From: Tetramitus jugosus
Lineage: Eukaryota; Protista; Heterolobosea
Assembly: GCA_937625935.1 (NCBI GenBank)
Contig: OW569352.1
Coordinates: forward strand, 548,712-612,711
Length of the DNA: 64,000 bases
Direction: 5' to 3'
In this document: positions 52,101 through 64,000 of the stretch, piece after piece
Layout: every line of letters starts with the position of its first letter
Position numbering within the stretch: the first letter of the stretch is position 1
Notes under the pieces: generated by a model
The model's database searches: none
What the model was told of the DNA's origin: nothing
What the model saw: the letters and a program-made list of their open reading frames with translations, nothing else
Translations under genes and position numbers: made by a program

Positions 52101-53635
52101 ATCAACTCTTCTTCTGTCAATGAATCGTAACGATATATACAGATATCATTCAATTTTCTATTTGCTGAATTGGATTCGAATATGGTTATAGGATCCATTG
52201 ATTGACCATCATTCGATTCCAGTTATCCTAGATCTACAACAGGTTGTATCACAGTTCCAGCTGCTTCACTGTCCTCTTGTTCATTCTGCAAAGCATTTTT
52301 GCTCGAGAAATGCTGGGTGATCTATCGATCATAGAGTTTCACCTTCCAGTTGACAAAGTTAATGTATCACCTCGAGAATGAAGACCAGAAGAACATAGCT
52401 CATTGAACAAGAATATATTGCATGATGGTCAATCAATGGATGAAACAAGACACATGGCTATTCTGAACAACAAAGGATCCATTCACCTGGACCTAATACT
52501 GCGAGTGGTAATTGTTATATTGTGAGAGATAATGAGCACGAAGATCAGGCAACAATTGTTCAAATTCTATTGAAGAAGAACAAGCGATACTTGATCTGTA
52601 ATTGTGAGGAAAAAAATGTCTGGTCTGTTTGGGAATTCTATGATTTTTGGGCTATGCAGATTGATATTTGAGTCGATTATCCATTCAGTTTACCAATTGG
52701 TAAAATCATTGAGTCTGCGAAAACAAAAAACACAAGAAGAGGGAAGAAGAAGAATCGGGAGAGGCGTAAGGATAGAAAAGATACTAAGTATCATGATAAG
52801 CGTCAATCTAAGATAGATTTCATGGACAAAGTAGATCATGCGTGTGAAGATGATGTGGAGCTGATGGAGATGATTCTGAATCTGATTCTGGTAATTCTGA
52901 TTCTGATGATGAGAGTGATACTGATATGGATAATGATTTCAACAAAGGAGATTGTCATCATCTAGAACGTCTACTCACAAGAGTCAATGTGCACCATCTA
53001 CTAGTTCAAATTCTGCTACAGTGAAAAAATCAAACAGGAAGAATTTGATCAGCAATGATGGATCTAAGGTTCAATCTGAGAGCAATAATGATTAGTGAAG
53101 ATAAGGGATAGCTCTCTTCATATCTGATTTCAATCTTTCTTTGAGTACACCATACTGGCTCTCTATTTGGGTTTTCAAAGTGTCAACAAGGGTTCTTGAC
53201 TAACTGAACAGTAGATCTTCATTGACAACTAGTTCGACCAGAGCTTGAGAATCCGAGATATGATTGCATTCTGTAGGCTCCTTTGTGGATCTCTTGGATT
53301 AACAATCCCATGCAGTCTTTCTAGATGAACAATCAAGCGATTGGTACTACCATTACCTTTATTCATAGATAATACCAGGATTGACAGTCTTGGATTTTAC
53401 ATCGAACATAGTATCTTTCGTTTTCTTGCACTCTCCATATGTTCCCAGACGAAACTTCAGTTTAATTTTCTTTCTGGCTTTATTCGTGAGTGAGATGTTG
53501 TTGTTAGTTGTGATATATTTACGTGCAACACAGGTATTCGGGCTGGACGCAAATCTAGTGCGGTTCCTAAACATGAGCACTCTACACAACTTTATTATTT
53601 ATACTAAAAGTCAACTGCCCTGCACAAAAGTTTTG

Positions 53636-53765
53636 AACCTCGGAAGGTTGCAATTGCCATTGGGCCAATTAAATGGTCCTTAGGACCATTTCAATTGGCC
53701 GTTGGTGAATTGCCATTGCAGTTGAAGCCGTACCCCGTACGGTTATCCACTACACTCCTCGTGGT
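53636..53765 (-). other. Cluster of hairpins immediately 3' of the Penelope-like ORF
   Basis: GGCCAATT-AAATGGTCCT-T-AGGACCATTT-C-AATTGGCC long stem, plus AACCT-CGGA-AGGTT, CCGTAC-CCC-GTACGG and CCAC..GTGG stems. Confidence 0.7.
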
Positions 53766-55480
53766 TCAGTACTTGTAGTCCATGCTGTCAAGTTTGCGTT
53801 TCTTGATGCGGGGTGCACTCTGCATTAATGTGCAACCTGTTGTATCTCTCACTCTCTTAGATACAACAGTTGTATTCACATTGCAGGAGTCCCATGTGGA
53901 CTGTGAAGGAGTTGCTTTCTGTCTTTTAGCCATTGCGGCTTCGACAGCCTCCTTTTCCCTCAAATACCTCTTGTTCTGGGTCTTGGGTGGGTTTGGGCGC
54001 GGGCGCGTTGCTGACTTCCCCTTTCCGAAAATGATCGGATCAGTCGTTGTGCAGCAAATGAAGTACGCTGCCAACGACGTTTGTGATTACCAACAACAAC
54101 GTCCATTAGTTTCCTAGCTTCTTTTTATCTTCGTTTGGCATTGGATCACATTGTTGCACCCAAGTGTTGAATTTGGTTTTGCATGTGTGCAGCACTTCTC
54201 TGATGTTGGGAAGTATGACATTTGCAAATGACCAATTCCTTTGGCAAATCAATCTCATTGAAGAGAGAAATGGCATTGATCAATTGTCGATAATTGATGC
54301 CACTGCCAGAGTGAAACACTTTCCAAATTGGTGGAATGTTTGGTTTGTGTTGCAAGTCCAACTTTTGTTGGTACTTGTTCACTCTAGCTTGCCAGTCAAT
54401 AGGTTTGCAGTATCGTTCAACGAGTGCAAAGTAATTGTTCTTTGTGAACATTCGTTGTATGAAGTGGTGGTCATGTCCTCTTCTTAGACGAGAGGTAAAC
54501 AATGTTCGCATTGAATCAAATTGTTTGAAATGATCAACAAGGCGAGCGTATCTCACCCGTGATAAAACCTTTCCTTGCTGCAAAGGAAGACGCTGATTTG
54601 TACATGGAGTACATGTACTTGTTCAATGGTTTCTGGTAAACATTGAAGCAAAAGCGCCGTAATGGAACTGCCTAGTTCACGTAGTATTTTTCCAATTGGA
54701 TGTGCAAATCCAGGAAAACATTGCGATCTGCTTTGCAGAGTTTTAGATCCGAACCATTGTATGTTAACAATAGTAGGTATGCACTCTTTTGTGCACGCAA
54801 TGAAGAGGTCGTCGATGTATCTCACAACAATGCAGTGAGATCTGTTGACCTTGATGAGGTGTTGCAACTCATATGCAAGTAACACAAGGTTGGCTAATTC
54901 CGGTGCACAGTTTGTGCCCATTGGAAGGCCAATTACTTGCTTGAAAATGGTATTGTTCAATTCCTCACATCTGATGTACGTGCAGGTTAGCACGAAGTGC
55001 AACAACAATTTCATTGCACCAATTTCTTGTGTTGTCCAAGTGTTTGGTTCTAGTTTTTGCATCATTTCAAAAATGTACTCCATGTTTGATTTGATGATGT
55101 CATGTCTCAAATTGGTGTACAATGCAGTGAAGTCATAGCTGTGGGTTTGTAGCTTTGGATGCACTCTAAATTCCCACGTTGCTCCGTTTTGTAAACACCA
55201 TCTGTTAAGGACCAGTTTCGCCTCATATGAGGATGAAACAATAGGCATTACTGGTAGTAACCCTTGGGAATGGATAATTCATTGATCTCCTCAATTTGGT
55301 TGTACGCAGGTGTTCACCCATAGTTGGAGTCTTGTCTGTATTCATTTGTTGTATGTAAAAATTTTTCAAAATGTGGTTGATTGTCATCAAAACAATTTTC
55401 ACCAGGGGCGGAAAAAATTATGGTTTACAATCTTTTATTGTCCGGTAGCCTCATTAATTTGTGCACAACCACCTGGTCGT
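53766..55480 (-). mobile_element. Decayed, 5'-truncated Penelope-like retroelement (PLE) reverse transcriptase; no endonuclease visible
   Basis: VVHK..R; SYDFTALYTNLRHD; FKQVIGLPMGTNCAPELANLVLLAYE; RYIDDLF; then in shifted frames VFLDLHI, YQKPLNKYMY, KGFITGE..RYARL and SRLRRGH (PLE thumb). Several frameshifts and stops. Confidence 0.88.
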
Positions 55481-56600
55481 TAGGGGTTAAGAATTTGGAA
55501 TGAACATTCTCCACAATCGAATGTAGACAAGATAGAGTGCTAAGTGACATTTGGGATGAGTGTTTGAACCAAATATTGACCTGAATGAATACCAACGCCT
55601 CCAAAAGAATCTCAGATCAGACAGACATACCATCATTCTTTTGATGAGTTGCAGAGGATCCGCAGATTCTTTCAATTCGAATCTCCTTTGAGGCTCTCTT
55701 GCTTGTTTGTTTCGATAATATTACTCAATACTGCACCGATTCTTACGATACTAACTACTACAACAATTCCTTTAAATCTGTTGTTTACAAGAAATACCGG
55801 AGAACTACCGAAGAAATTTGCGCTCCCTCACCCAGAAGTAATAGAGCGTTGGGTGTAACAACGATGCTCTTGGAGATGTTTCTGATGGAAGGAAGAAGGC
55901 ATCTTTAATTCAAGATAAGAGAGAAAGTGCTGAGAAAAATTGTGAGATGGATGCTGCTAGACAAAACGCGAATTCAGTTCAACATTTGGTTGAAACAGTG
56001 TTGAATTCGTGGTGTTGGGTGCTCCGCTATCTTGCGTTTTGTGAGACATTGACAAAGTTCAAATCCTCGTCAGTCTTTGAAACTCAGACATCACAGTAAA
56101 CCTTTCACTCTAGGAAGTTCAGAGAGGGGAAACAACGAAGGTTGTAGGACAATGTTCATGGACAACAAATTCAGGAGCATGTTCTCTAGCTGCAGTATGA
56201 GCTACTTGTGCAGTGTCTGCTTTCGAAAACAGGATTCATCAGAGGTTCAACTTTGAACTTATCATTGCCAAACTTTCTCAGAGTATTCTTGATATCAAGA
56301 GGGAATTCTTCAATAAAATGAAATGATGTTGAAATTCTTAAATAGACAGAGGTAATCTTTTAATCTTGAGATATAAGGCGGGACAGACTCAATGTCGATG
56401 AATCGGAAGATAATTCAGTTCCTCCCACTGAACAAGTAGACTCAGTAACTGATGGTCACTGTTCCCTTTCTGTTACACCTGTCGTTTCTAGAAAGGATAG
56501 GAGAAGACGACCTAGACCTCAGAGAACAGATCCAGTGAGTCCAGCCGGCACTTCTCCTCTCTCAAAACTAACGAGAAAAGAGTAGGATGCCGAAAATAAG
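55480..56600 (-). pseudogene. Decayed paralogue of the tyrosine recombinase at 60137
   Basis: Minus-strand LRKFGNDKFKVEPLMN (~56235-56282) versus IRKYGNSKFKVCPLLN, followed in colinear order by HTAARE/HVGWRG, VSQN/VAQN, EGAQ/EGAQ and RWYSFRSI/RYTMRSL. Confidence 0.65.
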
Positions 56601-56937
56601 TCTGGTTTGTTTGATTCCGTACCCAAGCAGCGAGCGGAGAATTAACCCGAAGGCGACAACTCTTTTCCCATTTTCTACTGCCTGCAGAGCAGATGGGTTC
56701 TCAATGGTCACATTCCAGTTATGTGGATCAAAACGCTGTTTTGTACGTATAATAATACAATGTATATAATACAATATTACTATTTCTTCTCGTCCGGATA
56801 TCGAACAAAGATGTGGTTTGTTTGTGAAAAAAATTTTTATGTCATTCAACCAAAAAACCACCAGACATTTTTATGTCAAGTCTCCCCTACACGTGTGAAA
56901 GATCTGTTAATAAAGTGTAATACAGTGGCATCCCGAT

Positions 56938-57009
56938 CGCAATCTGCCGGGATTCGAACCCGGGTCGCAGCGATGGCAACGCTGCATGATACCCCTACAC
57001 TACAGATGC
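56938..57009 (-). tRNA. trnG-GCC: tRNA-Gly(GCC) with an altered 3' acceptor strand (possible pseudogene or insertion-site remnant)
   Basis: GCATCTG TA GTGTAGGGGTATCAT G CAGCG TTGCCAT CGCTG CGAC CCGGG TTCGAAT CCCGG CAGAT(T)GC. Anticodon and T arms are perfect; there is an extra T in the acceptor 3' strand. Confidence 0.85.
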
Positions 57010-57699
57010 CCATATCACAGCTAGATCTTGCTTAAGAATTTTAGTAGTCCCAAAGAATTTATTGAATGGTTCAATTGCAGAAATATGTTGAATGGTGCGC
57101 AAGATGGATTTGATACGACGCACAAGATGTGGTGCTGGTGGGAGCCGGTAAGTCCAGTGTTGAGGAGATTACAAAATGGGCTGGACATTATGCGGACCTG
57201 AGACAATTCGGCGATATCAATAAAAAAGGACCTAGCTGAGGTATTACTGGGCATAACTCCGATGAACAATACCACAACGAGAAAGTACGTTCACCATACT
57301 CAAGATCCTATCTACCTCTCATCGAACGAAACATCATAACACAGAGAAGAAATTATTGAGGAAACTAACTAATACTTCAACCACATTATGAATCAATCAT
57401 CAAAATCTGGGATATCTCAGTAAACACATTATTAAGACCTCGACCAACAAAAGTACATTCTCCACAACAAAGTGAAATGACCCTCTTCCTTTGACCTCCA
57501 CCACACCTAAGGAGCACAACTCAAATCAACAAGGAGGATCTATTGTGAAATGAAGGACAATTGATTTTAGCTTAGCCTTGCTTCACATGATTACCAGAGA
57601 GATTAATATTACAAGATGAGCTAAAGCACGTGCGTAGAGTGATTCTTTTCAGTTTATTCCTTTTCAATTAGGTGAAATATTTGTTTAGGAGGTTGGTAC

Positions 57700-58700
57700 A
57701 GGGGCTATCAGGACTGGAGTCGAACCGTCCGGTTCCCTATTATCATAAACTTAATGGAGATTTGGAGGTTCAACGAAAAAGTCAGGTTCAGGGTCTACAG
57801 ACACAAATCAGACAGTAACGAAACAAACTCATCATCAAGTAGTAATGAACAAGAGATCCCCAAGTTTGCCGTCAAGAGTTTACAAGATTCTCAGCTTCTA
57901 TCCAAGATATGACGAAGATGTCCTTGTTCTTGTGACCTTAGTGCTTGATGAAGAAGAAGAATCTTTGAAACCTAGAGGGCATTACACAGCTTTCAAGAAG
58001 GCTTAAGGAAACCGCATCAGCATGGAAGGCATCAAGACTGAGGATCTCAATTTTGGTTGTTTCATGATTTTGCTCCACATTTGGATCAATGAGAAACGTC
58101 CAGATGATCAGCCTTTGAATATTGGAGTTCCTGAAAACTTAATCAAAGATGGAACTCGTTAGTTCGTCAAGTGTCAAACGACTCATTTTCAGGGTATCCT
58201 GGATAACTGGATAACATCAAGGAACGTCTCAGTGATTTGTTGATCGTATGCATACAATTATTTAAAAAATATATTTTTAGGGGAGATGGATGGGGTTACC
58301 GTTACACTTTACACTCTTTTAAAAGGATGAGTTTGTCTCTGACTCGGAAAACAAAGAATGTACAACCAATCACTAACATACCAACCCAGTGGATGGACAG
58401 TTTGCGAACAAGTGGATGACACAATTGAAAGATGTTGAACTCTACGCTAATGATGTAGATGGGGTAGTGATTTTATTGTATTTGCTATGTTATCCCCGGC
58501 TTCAAGCCGAGTAAAGACTAACGATCAACGCGTATTCGATGTTAAATCAAGGTGAGAGCAAGTCACGCTAAATGTCGCACATCTTTACTCATTTTTTACT
58601 TGTTCGAAATGATGAAGAAAACTATGATTCGGTTGTCACTCGTCTGCGGATCTTCAATCGATATGCCAAATTTGAGTGGATAGCAAATGACAGGAATAAA
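57700..58700 (+). pseudogene. Possible decayed YR-family remnant
   Basis: Fragments PKFAVKSL, RISMEGIKTEDLNF, CIQLFKKYIFRG and DSVVTRLRIF..WIAND are loosely colinear with the intact YR; DNA homology to 62536-62785. Confidence 0.3.
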
Positions 58701-59235
58701 GGTCGACAATCCTCAGAATTGCAAAAAAATACACGTATTTTTTGAATTTAATAGTCCAACTTCAAATTTCAGCCATCAGTACAATGAAAATATCTCCAAA
58801 AAACAAAACAAACTGGTCCTTTATGTCATTGCTGTGTAAACGACAATTTTTTTAAAATTGGATAATGTCGTAAAAATCTACGAAGGTCAAAAAAAATTCA
58901 ATGTCACATTTTTTCTTCTGTGCAAAATTAACATCCGTGTTGGTGAAGTCCTGGAGGTTTTTTTGTGCTTTTTTTGGGCTTTGTTGTTCTTTTTTAGTTC
59001 TTCCTTCATTGAGCTTTTTCTTGTGAAACTGACCACACCGGCGTGTTGCTCGTGGTCAGTTCGAGGTGCTGACCACCATTTATATAATTGTTTCCAATTT
59101 TTTATGGATGATGAACTTAACTTGGCACGTGTAACGAGTAGCTGCACAAATAAACAAAGTTTTTCCTTCCGGATCTCGGAGTTTTGATCAAAAACAAACG
59201 CAATCAAACCAAATCACAAGGTCATCAACTGCATC

Positions 59236-60131
59236 ATGTTTACAAGTACTGAAACTAACTCAATTTCTTTTATTGTTTCTAGTGATATTAGAGAGAAGTT
59301 ACCAACAACTGGTAATAAACTTGTTATCATCTCCAAAGTTGGTAACAACTTCTTCATCGGTGAAGATAAAGAAGGAGTGAAGGAGGTGAGTAAGGAGATT
59401 GAAGACTTGAAGCAAAAATTGGAGGAAGAGAAAACTTCCAATAGTGACCTTACAAGCCAACTAAGAGATGCTTTATTGAATCTCAACAACAAAAAGCAAG
59501 AGATTGAGAAGCTCTCTGAACTGTGAAGAATTGGAGATTGAAATTCCACCAACTGAGTCTGCAAAGAAGGCTTTGAATTGGCTGGAGAAATCTCTGGTCA
59601 TTGTGGAGACTGAGGAAAGGCCTCCCAATTCTCAAGAAACGGTTGGTCAAATGGCCAAAATGAGTGACCATGAGTTTGAACGACTCCGAAAACACGTGTC
59701 CATCGTTGCGTGTATGAGATATGCGATTCGGAAGAGGGAGACCGGAGAGGAGGGAACTGAAGAGTTTCCTAAGATAGATCCGAGTCGGAGAGTTCTTGGT
59801 CCATTTAACCCTTGTCTTCAATGAGAGAAGTTCAAATTTGGAGACTACTTCCATTATGAGAAGTCCAAAATTGAGGGTAGAATCTATGACCGCTTTAGAA
59901 GCCTTCCCCTATTGGGTCATGTCCCAACATAGTCCTTCTACAATTGATGATAACATCAAGAAGGAATTGTTGTCTCAGGATAGAATGCCTTCCAGAATTA
60001 GACAACTCCTTATTAAGCTGAGAGAAAATGGAGACGATAGTGCCACGTCACCTTCCACCTCTACCTCTGGTGGTTCCAAGAGACGAAGCTCGTCCAGCGG
60101 TCCCAAAAAAAAAAAGAGTAAAACCAACTAA
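59236..60131 (+). pseudogene. Frameshifted coiled-coil ORF upstream of, or N-terminal to, the YR
   Basis: Three overlapping ORFs (59236-59526, 59504-59824, 59796-60131) read as one protein with single-base indels; ACTAAC..TTCTAG splice acceptor at ~59254-59282; NLS-like PKKKKSK. Confidence 0.55.
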
Positions 60132-60136
60132 TCTCA

Positions 60137-62407
60137 ATGACAATAGAAGAAGAGTACTCCAATCAGTTGGAAAGAATAAAAAAGTCTCCTTCTCATCCTT
60201 TTGTTTCTAATGGTCTAATCATTGTTGAAGACTCTTTCGAAACGCAAGAGGTTGATGGTCCAACGATGGAAGACATTGACAAGGAGCTTTCAATGTTGGC
60301 GGGAAAAACAGGAATAAAGAAGGTGACTGATGACCTATCGGTTAATCCTATCAAGAGAATGGAGAAAACAGACCGAGGGGAAGATTTTTGCCGTCAAGTG
60401 ACCGTCAGCATCGATGAGAACCAATCAATTGAGGATCAAATGATTCAATTGATGAATCTATTAGAGTTATCCAAAGCTCCTGGTACAAAACTGGTTCAAG
60501 CCTATGCCTGGAGGAGTTGGATTAGCTGGCTAAAGGAACAAGAAAACAATCACTCAGAGTTGACAACAGTTGACCCATACAACCCAAACAAGTTTGTAGT
60601 TGGGTTATATCTCTTGCATATGCGAGTGATACACAAGTACAGTCATAGTACGGTTGTCAACTGTTTCTGGAATCAACTTTGTTCGGTTTTGAAGGAAGAA
60701 AGAGCAATCGACTTGAAGAATGAGATGAAGGATTTTATCCATAAACTCTTCCGAGCTTTGATACGAAAGTACGGTAACTCTAAGTTTAAAGTGTGCCCAT
60801 TGCTCAACAATGATTTAGAAAAATGGCAGAAAAAATTGCACAAGAGAGACAACAGAGAACCACAAATTAAGTTGAGAGCTCTCATAATGTTTGGTAGACA
60901 TGTTGGGTGGAGAGGAGACACTCTTTCCTATATGAAATTGAGACACATCACCTTTTCAAGTTTGAAGAACGATGAACATCTGTATTTAGTTGCCCAAAAT
61001 GTGGGATACAAGAACAAAGGTGTTGGAGGACATGAGTTGAGAAATACTGTATACGGCAGTAGTGACTTGAATCGATGTCCAGTGTTTGCACTTCTTTGGT
61101 ACCTCTTTCACATCAGGAAGGTTTTTGTTTCACCAACGTTAGAGGAAGTGATCAATTCAGGTGATTATAGATTAGTTGAAGGAGCCCAAGACGAATTTTT
61201 GTTCACCCAATCGACTAGTGAACAACCAATGACATCCAAAGATATGTCAAACTTGATGAAAAAAAGTTCTGCAGAGGAATTGAAATGCAGATACACTATG
61301 AGATCATTGCGAAGTGGTCATATCTGTCAAGCACTCCTAACTAGCATCTTGAGATACGGTATCATTAAGGACAGTGTAAGACAGGCAATCAAGAGGCATG
61401 TGGGTTGGAACTCAGATGAATCAATCGACGCGTATGAACGAATGTCAATATTCTGTTCTCAAAATGTCGCCAACCTACAAGATCTTCAGCAACACACAGA
61501 TGCACAAGAACTGGTCAAATATTTCTGGAAAATGGATCAACCACAACCAAACAGTCTCACACCAATCAGAACCACAATGAGGCAAGTGCGAAGATCCTCG
61601 GTGCATCCTAAGAAGTCTCCATCATCAGTTACAAAGTATGTCTCATTCAGAAGTGTCAAGAAGAGAATTTTAGCACTGAGACCAAACTTGAAAAAGGTTT
61701 GCGAAGAAGAGGATTTATCAACAACAGGTAAGAAACATCAAACAACATGGATGACTTATCATCAAAAGTACATCAGGAAATGGTGTGAAAGTGCGGACGA
61801 ATGCAGAGAAATCTTGAATCAAAATAAGGAATATCTTTATGGTAGTTCTGATCAGAAGTCATCTGTACTTCTAAATGTTGGGAAGAAAATGTTCATCAAA
61901 CTGGCTGTTGGCTCTCAACAAGATGAATATATCAAGAAGGTATTTTATGAAGACTATAGAAGGAAAGACAAACAAAATGATAGAGAAGAACCCAATAGCC
62001 CGGCAGCAAGTAGATTCCTTCCTAGAGGAGTGAAAAGAAAACTTAACTTTGTCGCAGAGCCTGATGAACCAGAAGAGAACATACTTCAATATCCGCGCAT
62101 TCATATCCCATCGTTCAACAGACCAACCAATCCTATTTTCATGACTGAACTGCAAACTCAAGATTCACCCAAGCCAACAAGCAACGAACATGAGACCCAT
62201 GAGAGAAGCAATAATCAAGAAGATGAGATGGAATTGAATGAAGTCGAACGTCAACAACAACCAATGGATGATACAGATGACATACCTCAACAATTTCAGA
62301 ATGAGCAAGCACCAACCTCCTTCGATGATTACATTAGCGAGCGAGAGTACTTGGGTTGGGTTTGGGTTTGGGTCTGTCTTGTTGTTAAGGAAAACCCGAG
62401 AATTTAG
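60137..62407 (+). mobile_element. Tyrosine recombinase (Crypton/DIRS-type YR) ORF, 756 aa, uninterrupted
   Basis: SAM-like core-binding region (APGTKLVQAYAWRSWISWL; YSHSTV); catalytic R (GRHVGWRGD); K (YKNK); RCPVFALLWYL; xSLRSG box (RSLRSGH); HVGW; Tyr (IDAYER). Confidence 0.88.
62351..62373 (+). repeat. Interstitial telomere-repeat tract inside the 3' end of the YR ORF
   Basis: TTGGGTTGGGTTTGGGTTTGGGT, translated as GWVWVWV; same orientation as the terminal array. Confidence 0.9.
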
Positions 62408-62929
62408 CTGTATTTGGTATCAGAGCGTTGAAATTTACAGTTTAGTGTAAAAACAAAATTTAGTTCGGTTGAGTTGTGGCTTATAGGTTGAGGGAGTAAA
62501 AAGAAGACATATAGGACAAGGGTTGAATGGATTTTGGAGTCTATTATCAGATCGGAGATATTGAGGTTCAACGAACAGGGAGGTTCACGGTCCAGGACCG
62601 TGAAATGATTTCCTGTATTTCATCTCAGGTCATTTGTCAGTGGAGCTTTTTGGATCCAGCAAAGAATTTCGACCAATGAGCGAAGTGATTACAACGAATT
62701 CAGAAGGAATACAATACAGCAACATGAATATAACAGAAGACTTGTGAAGGAGTTCAACCTGAAATACAATGGCAGTCAATAGTTAACTATATTTTGTCTT
62801 GATCATGATCTGTGACTACTAATTACGATTTATAGATACGCCGCAACCTGATTTTTAAGTAGTTTGATTTGATGTCTTTCTGATCTATCTGTACTAAAGT
62901 GCAAGTGCTTCTGTTGAAAAGCAGATTTC

Positions 62930-63153
62930 GGTTGCATCGACCTCCAACCAGCATATAAACCCAAATCCCACCCTTTTTTACTTTTTGATTGTATATCTAC
63001 AGAATAGGTCGTAGGGGACTCTGTAGTCATTCAATGAATCTTCAATTGAATCTCTGTTGAATCGCGAACTAATTATGTCAAAAGTACATTTAGGGTTGAC
63101 TTCTCCTCCAACCAGTGTATAAACCCTTACCCAACCTTTTTTCTTTTTGACTG
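62930..63153 (-). repeat. Pair of ~60 bp degenerate direct repeats (~62930-62992, ~63094-63153), probably a coding remnant
   Basis: CCTCCAACCAG..ATAAACCC..CCTTTTTT.CTTTTTGA.TGT occurs twice. On the minus strand the copies read QSKSKKGWDLGLYAGWR versus QSKRKKGW..GLYTGWR, with third-position differences. Confidence 0.75.
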
Positions 63154-63227
63154 TTCAGGACTCAGAGCATTTCTACGTCAAAATTATCATATCTGTTCGT
63201 TATCTATTGGTTCTGAAGTTATTTACA

Positions 63228-64000
63228 TGGGTTTGGGTTTGGGTTTGGGTTTGGGTTTGGGTTTGGGTTTGGGTTTGGGTTTGGGTTTGGGTTTGGGTTT
63301 GGGTTTGGGTTTGGGTTTGGGTTTGGGTTTGGGTTTGGGTTTGGGTTTGGGTTTGGGTTTGGGTTTGGGTTTGGGTTTGGGTTTGGGTTTGGGTTTGGGT
63401 TTGGGTTTGGGTTTGGGTTTGGGTTTGGGTTTGGGTTTGGGTTTGGGTTTGGGTTTGGGTTTGGGTTTGGGTTTGGGTTTGGGTTTGGGTTTGGGTTTGG
63501 GTTTGGGTTTGGGTTTGGGTTTGGGTTTGGGTTTGGGTTTGGGTTTGGGTTTGGGTTTGGGTTTGGGTTTGGGTTTGGGTTTGGGTTTGGGTTTGGGTTT
63601 GGGTTTGGGTTTGGGTTTGGGTTTGGGTTTGGGTTTGGGTTTGGGTTTGGGTTTGGGTTTGGGTTTGGGTTTGGGTTTGGGTTTGGGTTTGGGTTTGGGT
63701 TTGGGTTTGGGTTTGGGTTTGGGTTTGGGTTTGGGTTTGGGTTTGGGTTTGGGTTTGGGTTTGGGTTTGGGTTTGGGTTTGGGTTTGGGTTTGGGTTTGG
63801 GTTTGGGTTTGGGTTTGGGTTTGGGTTTGGGTTTGGGTTTGGGTTTGGGTTTGGGTTTGGGTTTGGGTTTGGGTTTGGGTTTGGGTTTGGGTTTGGGTTT
63901 GGGTTTGGGTTTGGGTTTGGGTTTGGGTTTGGGGTTTGGGTTTGGGTTTGGGTTTGGGTTTGGGTTTGGGTTTGGGTTTGGGGGTTGGGTTTGGGTTTGG
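63228..64000 (+). repeat. Telomere (TTTGGG)n
   Basis: About 770 bp of near-perfect TTTGGG hexamers running to the window end, with the G-rich strand 5'->3' toward the end. Confidence 0.98.

What the first reader, a model, noticed from the sequence alone, without database searches (positions are those of the whole stretch)
62340..62407. Intact YR ORF runs without a stop into an internal (TTTGGG) tract
Seen: the YR frame passes through TTGGGTTGGGTTTGGGTTTGGGT (GWVWVWV) and stops 34 nt later, and about 850 bp of further sequence separates this tract from the terminal array. Inference has two options. (a) The tract is the recombination core or target of the element, because YR integration uses a short sequence shared by element and target. 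(b) It marks an earlier chromosome end where the element was broken and healed by telomerase, then extended by a later addition.
Basis: partly seen in the sequence, partly recalled or inferred. Interest (0 to 1): 0.75.

Follow-up and report, generated by a model that had tools for sequence, protein, structure and literature searches.

The report
Buried old telomere truncates recombinase gene
Near a chromosome tip, likely of a Naegleria-like amoeba, a gene for a predicted Cre-like DNA-recombining enzyme runs into a short patch of telomere repeats and then into an 854-base piece found in many copies; the patch likely marks an earlier broken and healed chromosome end onto which that piece was later added, not the enzyme's own target site.

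Summary
In detail: a 23-nt TTTGGG-type tract (62351-62373) lies in frame in a 756-aa ORF with a predicted Cre fold (Z 22.5), 854 bp inside the terminal array. The evidence favours option (b). Five of eight close family members with a visible C-terminus end in a shared motif; this copy and two others lose it at a GWVWVW tract, 44-108 residues past a landmark. In runs of the same organism, telomere tracts also join this element at about codons 271 and 489. The 854-bp stretch is a multi-copy unit whose fixed left end joins at least seven other upstream sequences through short tracts or directly; it has one shared right end plus truncated, telomere-capped copies. The stop codon is polymorphic in the unit. 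No telomere tract marks this element's left side. Best reading: a Crypton-like YR element was cut in its acidic tail and healed, then a non-autonomous telomere-primed unit was appended (MoTeR2/Athena-like); a nuclease-less Penelope-type RT relic lies 7 kb away. How the unit moves (RT, break-induced replication or YR) is not shown. Family-level telomere targeting by the YR is not excluded (about 0.2).

The parts
60137..62407 (+). Tyrosine recombinase ORF, 756 aa, Cre-like core-binding and catalytic domains (about aa 105-450), a helical domain (about aa 500-605), then a KRKL motif and acidic tail; 3'-truncated and read through into tract and unit
   Evidence: motif residues R259, K292/K294, R389 (in place of H), R392, W424, Y433 assigned from family conservation, not from a structural superposition
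62030..62350 (+). Basic motif plus acidic low-complexity tail, cut after codon 739; the natural C-terminal motif (Y-x-L-x-Y/F-L-L-x-L/F-D/N-F/Y-like) is absent here and from the rest of the window
62351..62373 (+). Internal telomere tract, 3.5 units, first unit with two T; likely an internalised former end and the junction to the added unit
62374..63227 (.). 854-bp non-coding multi-copy unit: fixed left end, a shared right end, truncated copies capped at 62440, 62571 and 63111; longest ATG ORF 66 aa; no terminal inverted repeat; two ~163-bp-period repeats (62917-62992, 63080-63154)
62405..62407 (+). Stop codon of the YR frame; it lies in the unit and reads TTG in many unit copies, so it is incidental
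   Evidence: 62406 A>T: X1 80,670 of 325,636 depth, X3 1,250 of 2,647, X5 74 of 80
63228..64000 (+). Terminal (TTTGGG)n array, 128.5 units to the window end
59117..60136 (+). 5' part of the YR element: multi-copy, with a broken upstream ORF in three frames (59188-60131) of no known family; no telomere tract at its left side
53766..55278 (-). Decayed Penelope-like RT ORF with no GIY-YIG domain, 3' end pointing away from the telomere; candidate trans-acting RT family (inferred)

Best explanation
The tract is likely a former chromosome end: a Crypton-like tyrosine-recombinase element near the tip likely lost its distal part inside the acidic tail, a few telomere repeats were likely added at a G-rich seed, and a non-coding 854-bp multi-copy unit was likely then copied onto that short end and capped by the present array. 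Shown: tract, junction, loss of the family C-terminal motif, variable tract positions, and the unit's high copy level, fixed left end and many upstream partners. Inferred: the order of events, and that telomerase made the tract. I commit to the unit being a non-autonomous telomere-primed retroelement (MoTeR2/Athena-like, RNA 3' end towards the centromere) copied by an endonuclease-less Penelope-type RT such as the decayed one at 53.8-55.3 kb. That last step has odds of about 0.4, against break-induced replication about 0.25 and YR about 0.2. The YR catalytic region is untouched by the cut, so the protein may still be active (untested).
For: (1) Of 8 close homologs that reach the tail, 5 end without a tract in a shared motif (strict pattern met by P0002, P0003, P0008; P0006 and P0011 by eye) and 3 (P0001, P0004, P0005) lose it at GWVW, 108, 104 and 44 residues after KR[KR]L, with unrelated sequence before and after. 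(2) Other copies in organism A join a telomere tract at 60939+8 nt (X1 depth 1,504, X3 43) and 61601 (X1 98, minor), codons ~271 and ~489; contig depth in X3 falls from 172-180 on the 5' half to 102 on the 3' half. (3) Non-YR DNA joins the same tract: 56682 to 62352 (X1, X2), and at least 7 different upstream sequences in X1 and X3 among the 19 of 29 loose-end rows shown, one with no tract. (4) Unit contig depth 753 against 43-45 for unique neighbours in X3; right end at 63227 shared (X3 311); caps at 62440, 62571, 63111 (X1 1,641-1,922, unique contigs 805-1,415). (5) The stop codon is polymorphic. (6) The shared WVWV frame is expected from GG seeds across acidic codons, P about 0.27-0.29. (7) A distant homolog, P0069, meets telomere-derived peptide inside its catalytic domain in the opposite orientation. 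(8) No tract between 54000 and the ORF start. (9) The same anatomy is described for MoTeR, FoTeR and EN-minus PLEs; PLE homologs P0075 and P0076 carry RT but no GIY-YIG hit.
Against: All 3 near-full-length truncations fall in the last ~110 residues and share a frame and a GW start, which a break at random does not predict (partly a length filter: one search covered only 415-1,323 aa). The joints at 60939 and 61601 rest on 21-22 letters, the tract alone, at 85% likeness; the tool warns about such joints, and they do not show that the unit follows. No hammerhead was found in the unit (Rfam; motif scan), and the window's PLE relic has no telomere tract at its own 3' side. The unit is flanked by TGGGT on both sides, as a YR insertion would be. 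Contig depths are not copy numbers. No DNA around P0002-P0011 could be fetched, so their junctions are read from peptides only.
Confidence: 0.65

Rival explanations
1. The tract is the YR element's own recombination core or target: the element recombines through a site in the 3' end of its YR gene into telomeric repeats.
For: 3 of 8 close homologs run into GWVW in the same frame within the tail. Precedents: TATE inserts at one register in telomeric hexamers; some CryptonV target microsatellites.
Against: Tract position is not fixed; no shared sequence upstream of the three tracts; 5 of 8 homologs are intact without a tract; no left-hand tract and no displaced C-terminal motif in the window; non-YR DNA has the same junction.
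Confidence: 0.1
2. The YR gene was broken and healed, but the 854-bp unit is a non-autonomous DNA element that this YR family inserts into telomere repeats through a shared TGGGT core.
For: Both unit ends recur in several copies and both are flanked by TGGGT; Cryptons have 4-6-bp terminal direct repeats. A weak relic of the unit's first ~250 bp lies at 57536-57800, upstream of the YR gene, and could be the autonomous element's left end (nhmmer E 0.005; alignment score 305 against 298 for the next window).
Against: Any insert in telomere repeats is flanked by TGGGT. The would-be circle junction has no inverted arms (best 7 of 13) and no terminal inverted repeat (6 of 30). Short proximal tracts are common, which random insertion into a long array would not give (though 31-letter contigs only reveal short ones). 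The relic is marginal.
Confidence: 0.17
3. The unit is a passive subtelomeric repeat spread by break-induced replication: a newly healed short end invades the internal tract in front of the unit on another chromosome and copies it (as seen in MoTeR arrays; yeast Y' is recalled, not checked). This shares the break-and-heal step with the best explanation and differs only in how the unit is copied.
For: Needs only host enzymes; explains short tracts and a fixed left end; BIR is documented for MoTeR arrays; no ORF or ribozyme in the unit.
Against: One junction starts at the unit's first bases with no tract (62382 rows in X3 and X5), and a single-copy contig shares only the first ~72 nt before running on into different sequence (X3 record 11); both suggest an element-defined end shared among families.
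Confidence: 0.25
4. Assembly chimera joining a YR copy to another chromosome end across the short repeat.
Against: The 23-nt tract is shorter than the 31-letter words, and a contig at depth 59.5 (X2) and 102 (X3) passes from YR through the tract into the unit; P0004 and P0005 show the same kind of junction in other records.
Confidence: 0.04

Closest known systems
MoTeR1/MoTeR2 of Magnaporthe oryzae (PMC7367193, passages read) and FoTeR of Fusarium oxysporum (PMC12857005, abstract and section 19 read)
   Same: Acquisition internalises a short telomere tract; 5' end faces the chromosome end; distal truncations are healed at 1-7-nt seeds; FoTeR 3' ends carry 3-7 repeats; BIR also moves copies.
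   Different: No MoTeR-type RT was seen in this window; the unit is 854 bp with no ORF; its RNA polarity and mobility are inferred.
Endonuclease-deficient Penelope-like elements: Athena, Coprina, Terminons (PMC8557442 and PMC6431247, passages read; PMC1890498 not held)
   Same: Short telomere tract at a fixed proximal end, variable distal truncation; an RT-only PLE family sits in the same subtelomere in the expected orientation.
   Different: No hammerhead found in the unit; no similarity shown between unit and PLE; the PLE relic lacks a 3' telomere tract.
Crypton DNA transposons, including microsatellite-targeting CryptonV (PMC3212892, PMC8869645, passages read)
   Same: YR gene with no RT in the element; Cre-like fold; homologs in Naegleria and Willaertia.
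   Different: R in place of the tetrad H across the family; an extra helical domain and acidic tail of no Pfam family; a broken upstream ORF; element ends and direct repeats undefined.
TATE of Leishmania braziliensis (PMC6681497, passages read)
   Same: YR-encoding element associated with telomere repeats in a discoban protist.
   Different: TATE is a YR retroelement in tandem clusters at one register of the hexamer; here there is no RT in the element, no left tract and no fixed tract position.

Membership tests
Tyrosine recombinase superfamily | Core-binding plus catalytic lambda-Int/Cre fold | tested here: met
   Cre Z 22.5, rmsd 3.3 A, 293 aligned; Foldseek E 2.5e-7; Phage_integrase matches 5 of 45 family members, best E 7.7e-6
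Tyrosine recombinase superfamily | Catalytic R-H-R-(H/W)-Y set | tested here: inconclusive
   R259, R392, W424 and Y433 present; the H position is R389, and R in all 20 aligned members; assigned by motif, activity untested
Crypton | YR without RT in the element | tested here: met
   No RT hit in the 5 ORFs scanned between 57.7 and 62.4 kb; the only RT seen is an opposite-strand PLE relic
Crypton | 4-6-bp terminal direct repeats | not testable with these tools
   Right end lost, left end undefined, no genome held, no related loci
Crypton | Placement among Crypton YR clades | not tested
   No reference Crypton proteins were fetched; no tree built
TATE (telomere-targeting YR retroelement) | Insertion at one fixed register with telomere repeats on both sides | tested here: not met
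   No tract left of the ORF from 54000 on; tract position varies
TATE (telomere-targeting YR retroelement) | RT encoded with the YR (RT content recalled; DIRS-type classification seen) | tested here: not met
EN-minus PLE / Terminon (for the 854-bp unit) | Short reverse-complement telomere repeats at a fixed 3' end | tested here: met
   strand assignment is inferred
EN-minus PLE / Terminon (for the 854-bp unit) | Hammerhead ribozyme next to the repeats | tested here: not met
   No HHR family in the Rfam scan at E up to 5; no CTGA.GA...GAAA core in the unit; divergent minimal HHRs could be missed
EN-minus PLE / Terminon (for the 854-bp unit) | RNA intermediate and PLE RT dependence | not testable with these tools
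   No RNA holder listed
MoTeR2-type non-autonomous telomeric element | Termini shared with an autonomous partner | tested here: inconclusive
   A single-copy contig shares the first ~72 nt and then diverges (X3 record 11); its other letters were not shown beyond 30
Protelomerase | TelA/TelK-type fold acting on hairpin ends | tested here: inconclusive
   Z 6.4-7.1 against 22.5 for Cre; the chromosome ends in ordinary tandem repeats

The most novel reading that the evidence does not exclude
A heterolobosean family of RT-free, Cre-like recombinase elements homes to telomere repeats, and the 854-bp unit is its non-autonomous derivative, inserted through a TGGGT core at many chromosome ends, even onto broken copies of its own master element. 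This would be a DNA-only counterpart of TATE and telomeric retrotransposons.
Probability: 0.2. Interest if true: 0.7.

Novelty: new member of a known kind. Interest (0 to 1): 0.4.

Why it matters
It shows that chromosome ends in this likely heterolobosean amoeba are rebuilt in layers: YR elements, a nuclease-less Penelope-type element and a short non-coding cap unit, joined by vestigial telomere tracts. That anatomy is described in fungi and rotifers; my searches of the held library listed no paper describing it in Heterolobosea, though I read only passages of a few. If the YR proved to mobilise the unit into telomere repeats, it would be an RT-free telomere-targeting transposon with a Cre-like enzyme that reads a simple repeat. 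As it stands, the junction is best treated as a scar.

Tried and rejected
No whole genome is held, so other chromosome ends could not be read directly. No related YR loci in viral, metagenome or prokaryote contigs (75, 299 and 123 pattern matches, none confirmed), and no match of a 21-nt unit pattern in metagenome or viral contigs. No RNA holder listed. The ESM Atlas gave no result. Pfam and PDB sequence searches with P0001 or the 6-sequence alignment gave nothing significant; the first AlphaFold model was poor (pLDDT 44). The helical domain at aa ~500-605 was not folded alone, so a telomere-binding role is neither shown nor excluded (best row Z 5.6). Rejected: the 53977-53997 tract as a PLE junction, because it is coding (RPRPNPPKTQ is conserved in P0075). 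Rejected: an SSV-type split integrase, because the missing C-terminal motif is absent from all six frames by a relaxed pattern that itself misses P0006 and P0011. Rejected: the same-frame coincidence as proof of a site. A minus-strand hairpin exposing the CCCAAA tail folds at z -2.76 over 70 nt but z -1.76 over 120 nt, with the window chosen after the fact; not used as evidence. No YR copy with a different 3' continuation at 62343-62351 appears among the 19 of 29 loose-end rows shown; this is no proof of absence. The sigma-70 scan is irrelevant to a eukaryote. PMC1890498 is not held; bioRxiv 10.64898/2026.06.24.734286 has no occurrence of Crypton, DIRS, Penelope or recombinase in its main text (supplements not seen).

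Full report
Observation. The tract is at 62351-62373, with a first unit of two T and then two canonical units. The ORF (ATG 60137, 756 aa, P0001) reads through it as LGWVWVWV and stops at 62405-62407. The terminal array begins at 63228, leaving 854 bp. Sixty order-3 Markov copies of the window body gave no tract of three or more units. The host is likely a heterolobosean: TTTGGG is the candidate telomere repeat of Naegleria gruberi (PMC3622300, passages), and named distant homologs of the ORF come from N. lovaniensis, N. gruberi and Willaertia magna. No genome is held.

The protein. P0001 has no significant Pfam or PDB sequence hit. Five proteins at 54-65% identity were found, and a profile search returned 66 at E up to 0.001. 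A model of residues 91-611 from 45 sequences (pLDDT 85.6) matches Cre at Z 22.5, rmsd 3.3 A over 293 residues; protelomerases score 6.4-7.1. R259, R392, W424 and Y433 fit the catalytic set, with R389 at the usual H position in all 20 aligned members. No RT was seen in the element. It works like a Crypton-type YR; its termini are undefined, so membership is not established.

C-termini. Eight close members reach the tail. Five end without a tract in a shared motif (strict pattern: P0002, P0003, P0008; by eye: P0006, P0011). Three, P0001, P0004 and P0005, lose it at GWVW, 108, 104 and 44 residues after the KR[KR]L landmark, and continue in unrelated peptides. Of 73 proteins scanned for telomere-derived peptides, 4 had them: these three and P0069, a distant fragment that starts inside the catalytic domain after GLGLG and PNPN repeats. 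Many of the 73 are fragments. So the frame is open but truncated, and truncation at telomere tracts recurs. The shared reading frame looked like a sign of a fixed site, but in acidic tails about 65% of expected GG dinucleotides straddle codons, which gives three equal frames with P about 0.27-0.29. P0004 and P0005 are unnamed NCBI records on 6.4- and 4.6-kb contigs; their DNA could not be fetched, and their species is unknown.

Read evidence. Three runs of organism A (two samples, one study) hold the stretch; they may include the assembly's source, and all are short-word contigs. A contig 61046-62379 crosses the tract into the unit at depth 59.5 (X2) and 102 (X3), against 30 and 43-45 for unique neighbours. 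It has 28 letters past the junction, just under the tool's bridging rule. The YR 5' half is at 172-180 in X3. Other copies join a telomere tract at 60939 plus 8 nt (X1 1,504; X3 43) and at 61601 (X1 98), about codons 271 and 489; these rest on 21-22 letters. Non-YR DNA at 56682 also joins 62352 (X1 side 44, X2 side 28). Twenty-one further joints were not shown.

The 854-bp unit. One contig inside it has depth 753 in X3, about 17 times the unique level; depth is only a rough guide. Its left end meets at least 7 other upstream sequences in X1 and X3, counted from the 19 of 29 loose-end rows shown, through short tracts, several with a 2-T or 1-T first unit, and once with no tract. Its right end at 63227 is shared (X3 311), and copies are capped by canonical repeats at 62440, 62571 and 63111. 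The YR stop codon lies in the unit and reads TTG in many copies. The unit has no ORF over 66 aa, no terminal inverted repeat and no inverted arms around a would-be TGGGT core, and no hammerhead.

Surroundings. No telomere tract lies between 54000 and the ORF start, and the missing C-terminal motif was not found in the window. A decayed Penelope-like RT lies at 53766-55278 on the minus strand; its homologs P0075 and P0076 have RT and no GIY-YIG hit. Relics of a second YR subfamily lie at 56231-56311 and 52199-52363. A weak relic of the unit's left part lies at 57536-57800 (E 0.005).

Mechanism. Inferred order: the end was cut inside the YR tail; a few repeats were added at a TG/GG seed; the unit was copied on and capped. 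MoTeR acquisition internalises telomere repeats in this way, truncated copies heal at 1-7-nt seeds, and BIR also moves copies (PMC7367193, passages). FoTeR 3' ends carry 3-7 repeats (PMC12857005, section 19). EN-minus PLEs attach to G-rich overhangs through short complementary repeats next to a hammerhead (PMC8557442, PMC6431247, passages). I put break, heal and append at 0.65. For how the unit moves, I commit to telomere-primed reverse transcription (about 0.4) over BIR (0.25) and YR insertion (about 0.2); these odds overlap the 0.65 and are not additive with it. The missing hammerhead and the PLE relic's tract-less 3' side count against RT.

Against this reading. Three of eight homologs are cut in the same ~110-residue region, which suggests this family lives at chromosome ends and may prefer them. 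TATE inserts at one register of telomeric hexamers (PMC6681497, passages) and some CryptonV target microsatellites (PMC8869645, passages). An unreviewed note on another piece of this genome also reports a cut, telomere-capped YR copy and leans to targeting; I could test only the part that concerns this window, where the left tract that targeting predicts is absent.

Verdict. Real and recurrent, most likely a scar of telomere healing plus an added cap unit. New member of known kinds; interest 0.4. The YR-mobilised telomere-homing reading stays at about 0.2.

Noticed in passing
window 53766-55278 (-): Frameshifted Penelope-like RT ORF with a basic C-terminal tail and no GIY-YIG; homologs P0075 and P0076 at 63% and 54% identity. 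A 38-nt near-perfect palindrome (53663-53700) lies just 3' of it.
   Followed up: partly
window 56231-56311 and 52199-52363 (-): Relics of a second YR subfamily (P0014 type), tblastn E 4e-7 and 3e-6.
   Followed up: partly
window 56000-57204: Multi-copy region with a tRNA-Gly(GCC) gene at 56938-57010 (-), one extra base in the acceptor stem; another locus is cut at 56682 and joined to the same tract. Possibly a tRNA-linked repeat.
   Followed up: no
window 57536-57800: Weak diverged match to the first ~250 bp of the 854-bp unit, starting at the unit's first bases, with no telomere tract (nhmmer E 0.005).
   Followed up: partly
window 59188-60131 (+): Broken upstream ORF in three frames, coiled-coil-like then basic, multi-copy with the YR; other copies carry indels at 59288, 59318, 59521 and 59526; no Pfam family.
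   Followed up: no
window 62351-62356 and junction rows: The first unit at proximal junctions often has two T (or one), whereas the three distal caps at 62440, 62571 and 63111 start with canonical repeats. Unexplained; may reflect how copying is primed.
   Followed up: partly
window 62392-62399; P0004, P0005, P0069: An inverted telomere-like motif lies shortly after the tract in the window (AAAACCC); peptides after the tract in P0004, P0005 and P0069 (PPNPT, TLTQP, PNPNPTQP) could encode similar motifs. Inferred from peptides only.
   Followed up: no
window 62584-62604; 62917-62992 and 63080-63154: A 10-bp-stem hairpin and two 78%-identical ~76-nt repeats holding C-strand telomere-like motifs inside the unit.
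   Followed up: no
P0030 (Naegleria gruberi): A distant homolog carries a C-terminal chromodomain (E 4.7e-10), which could direct such elements to heterochromatin.
   Followed up: no
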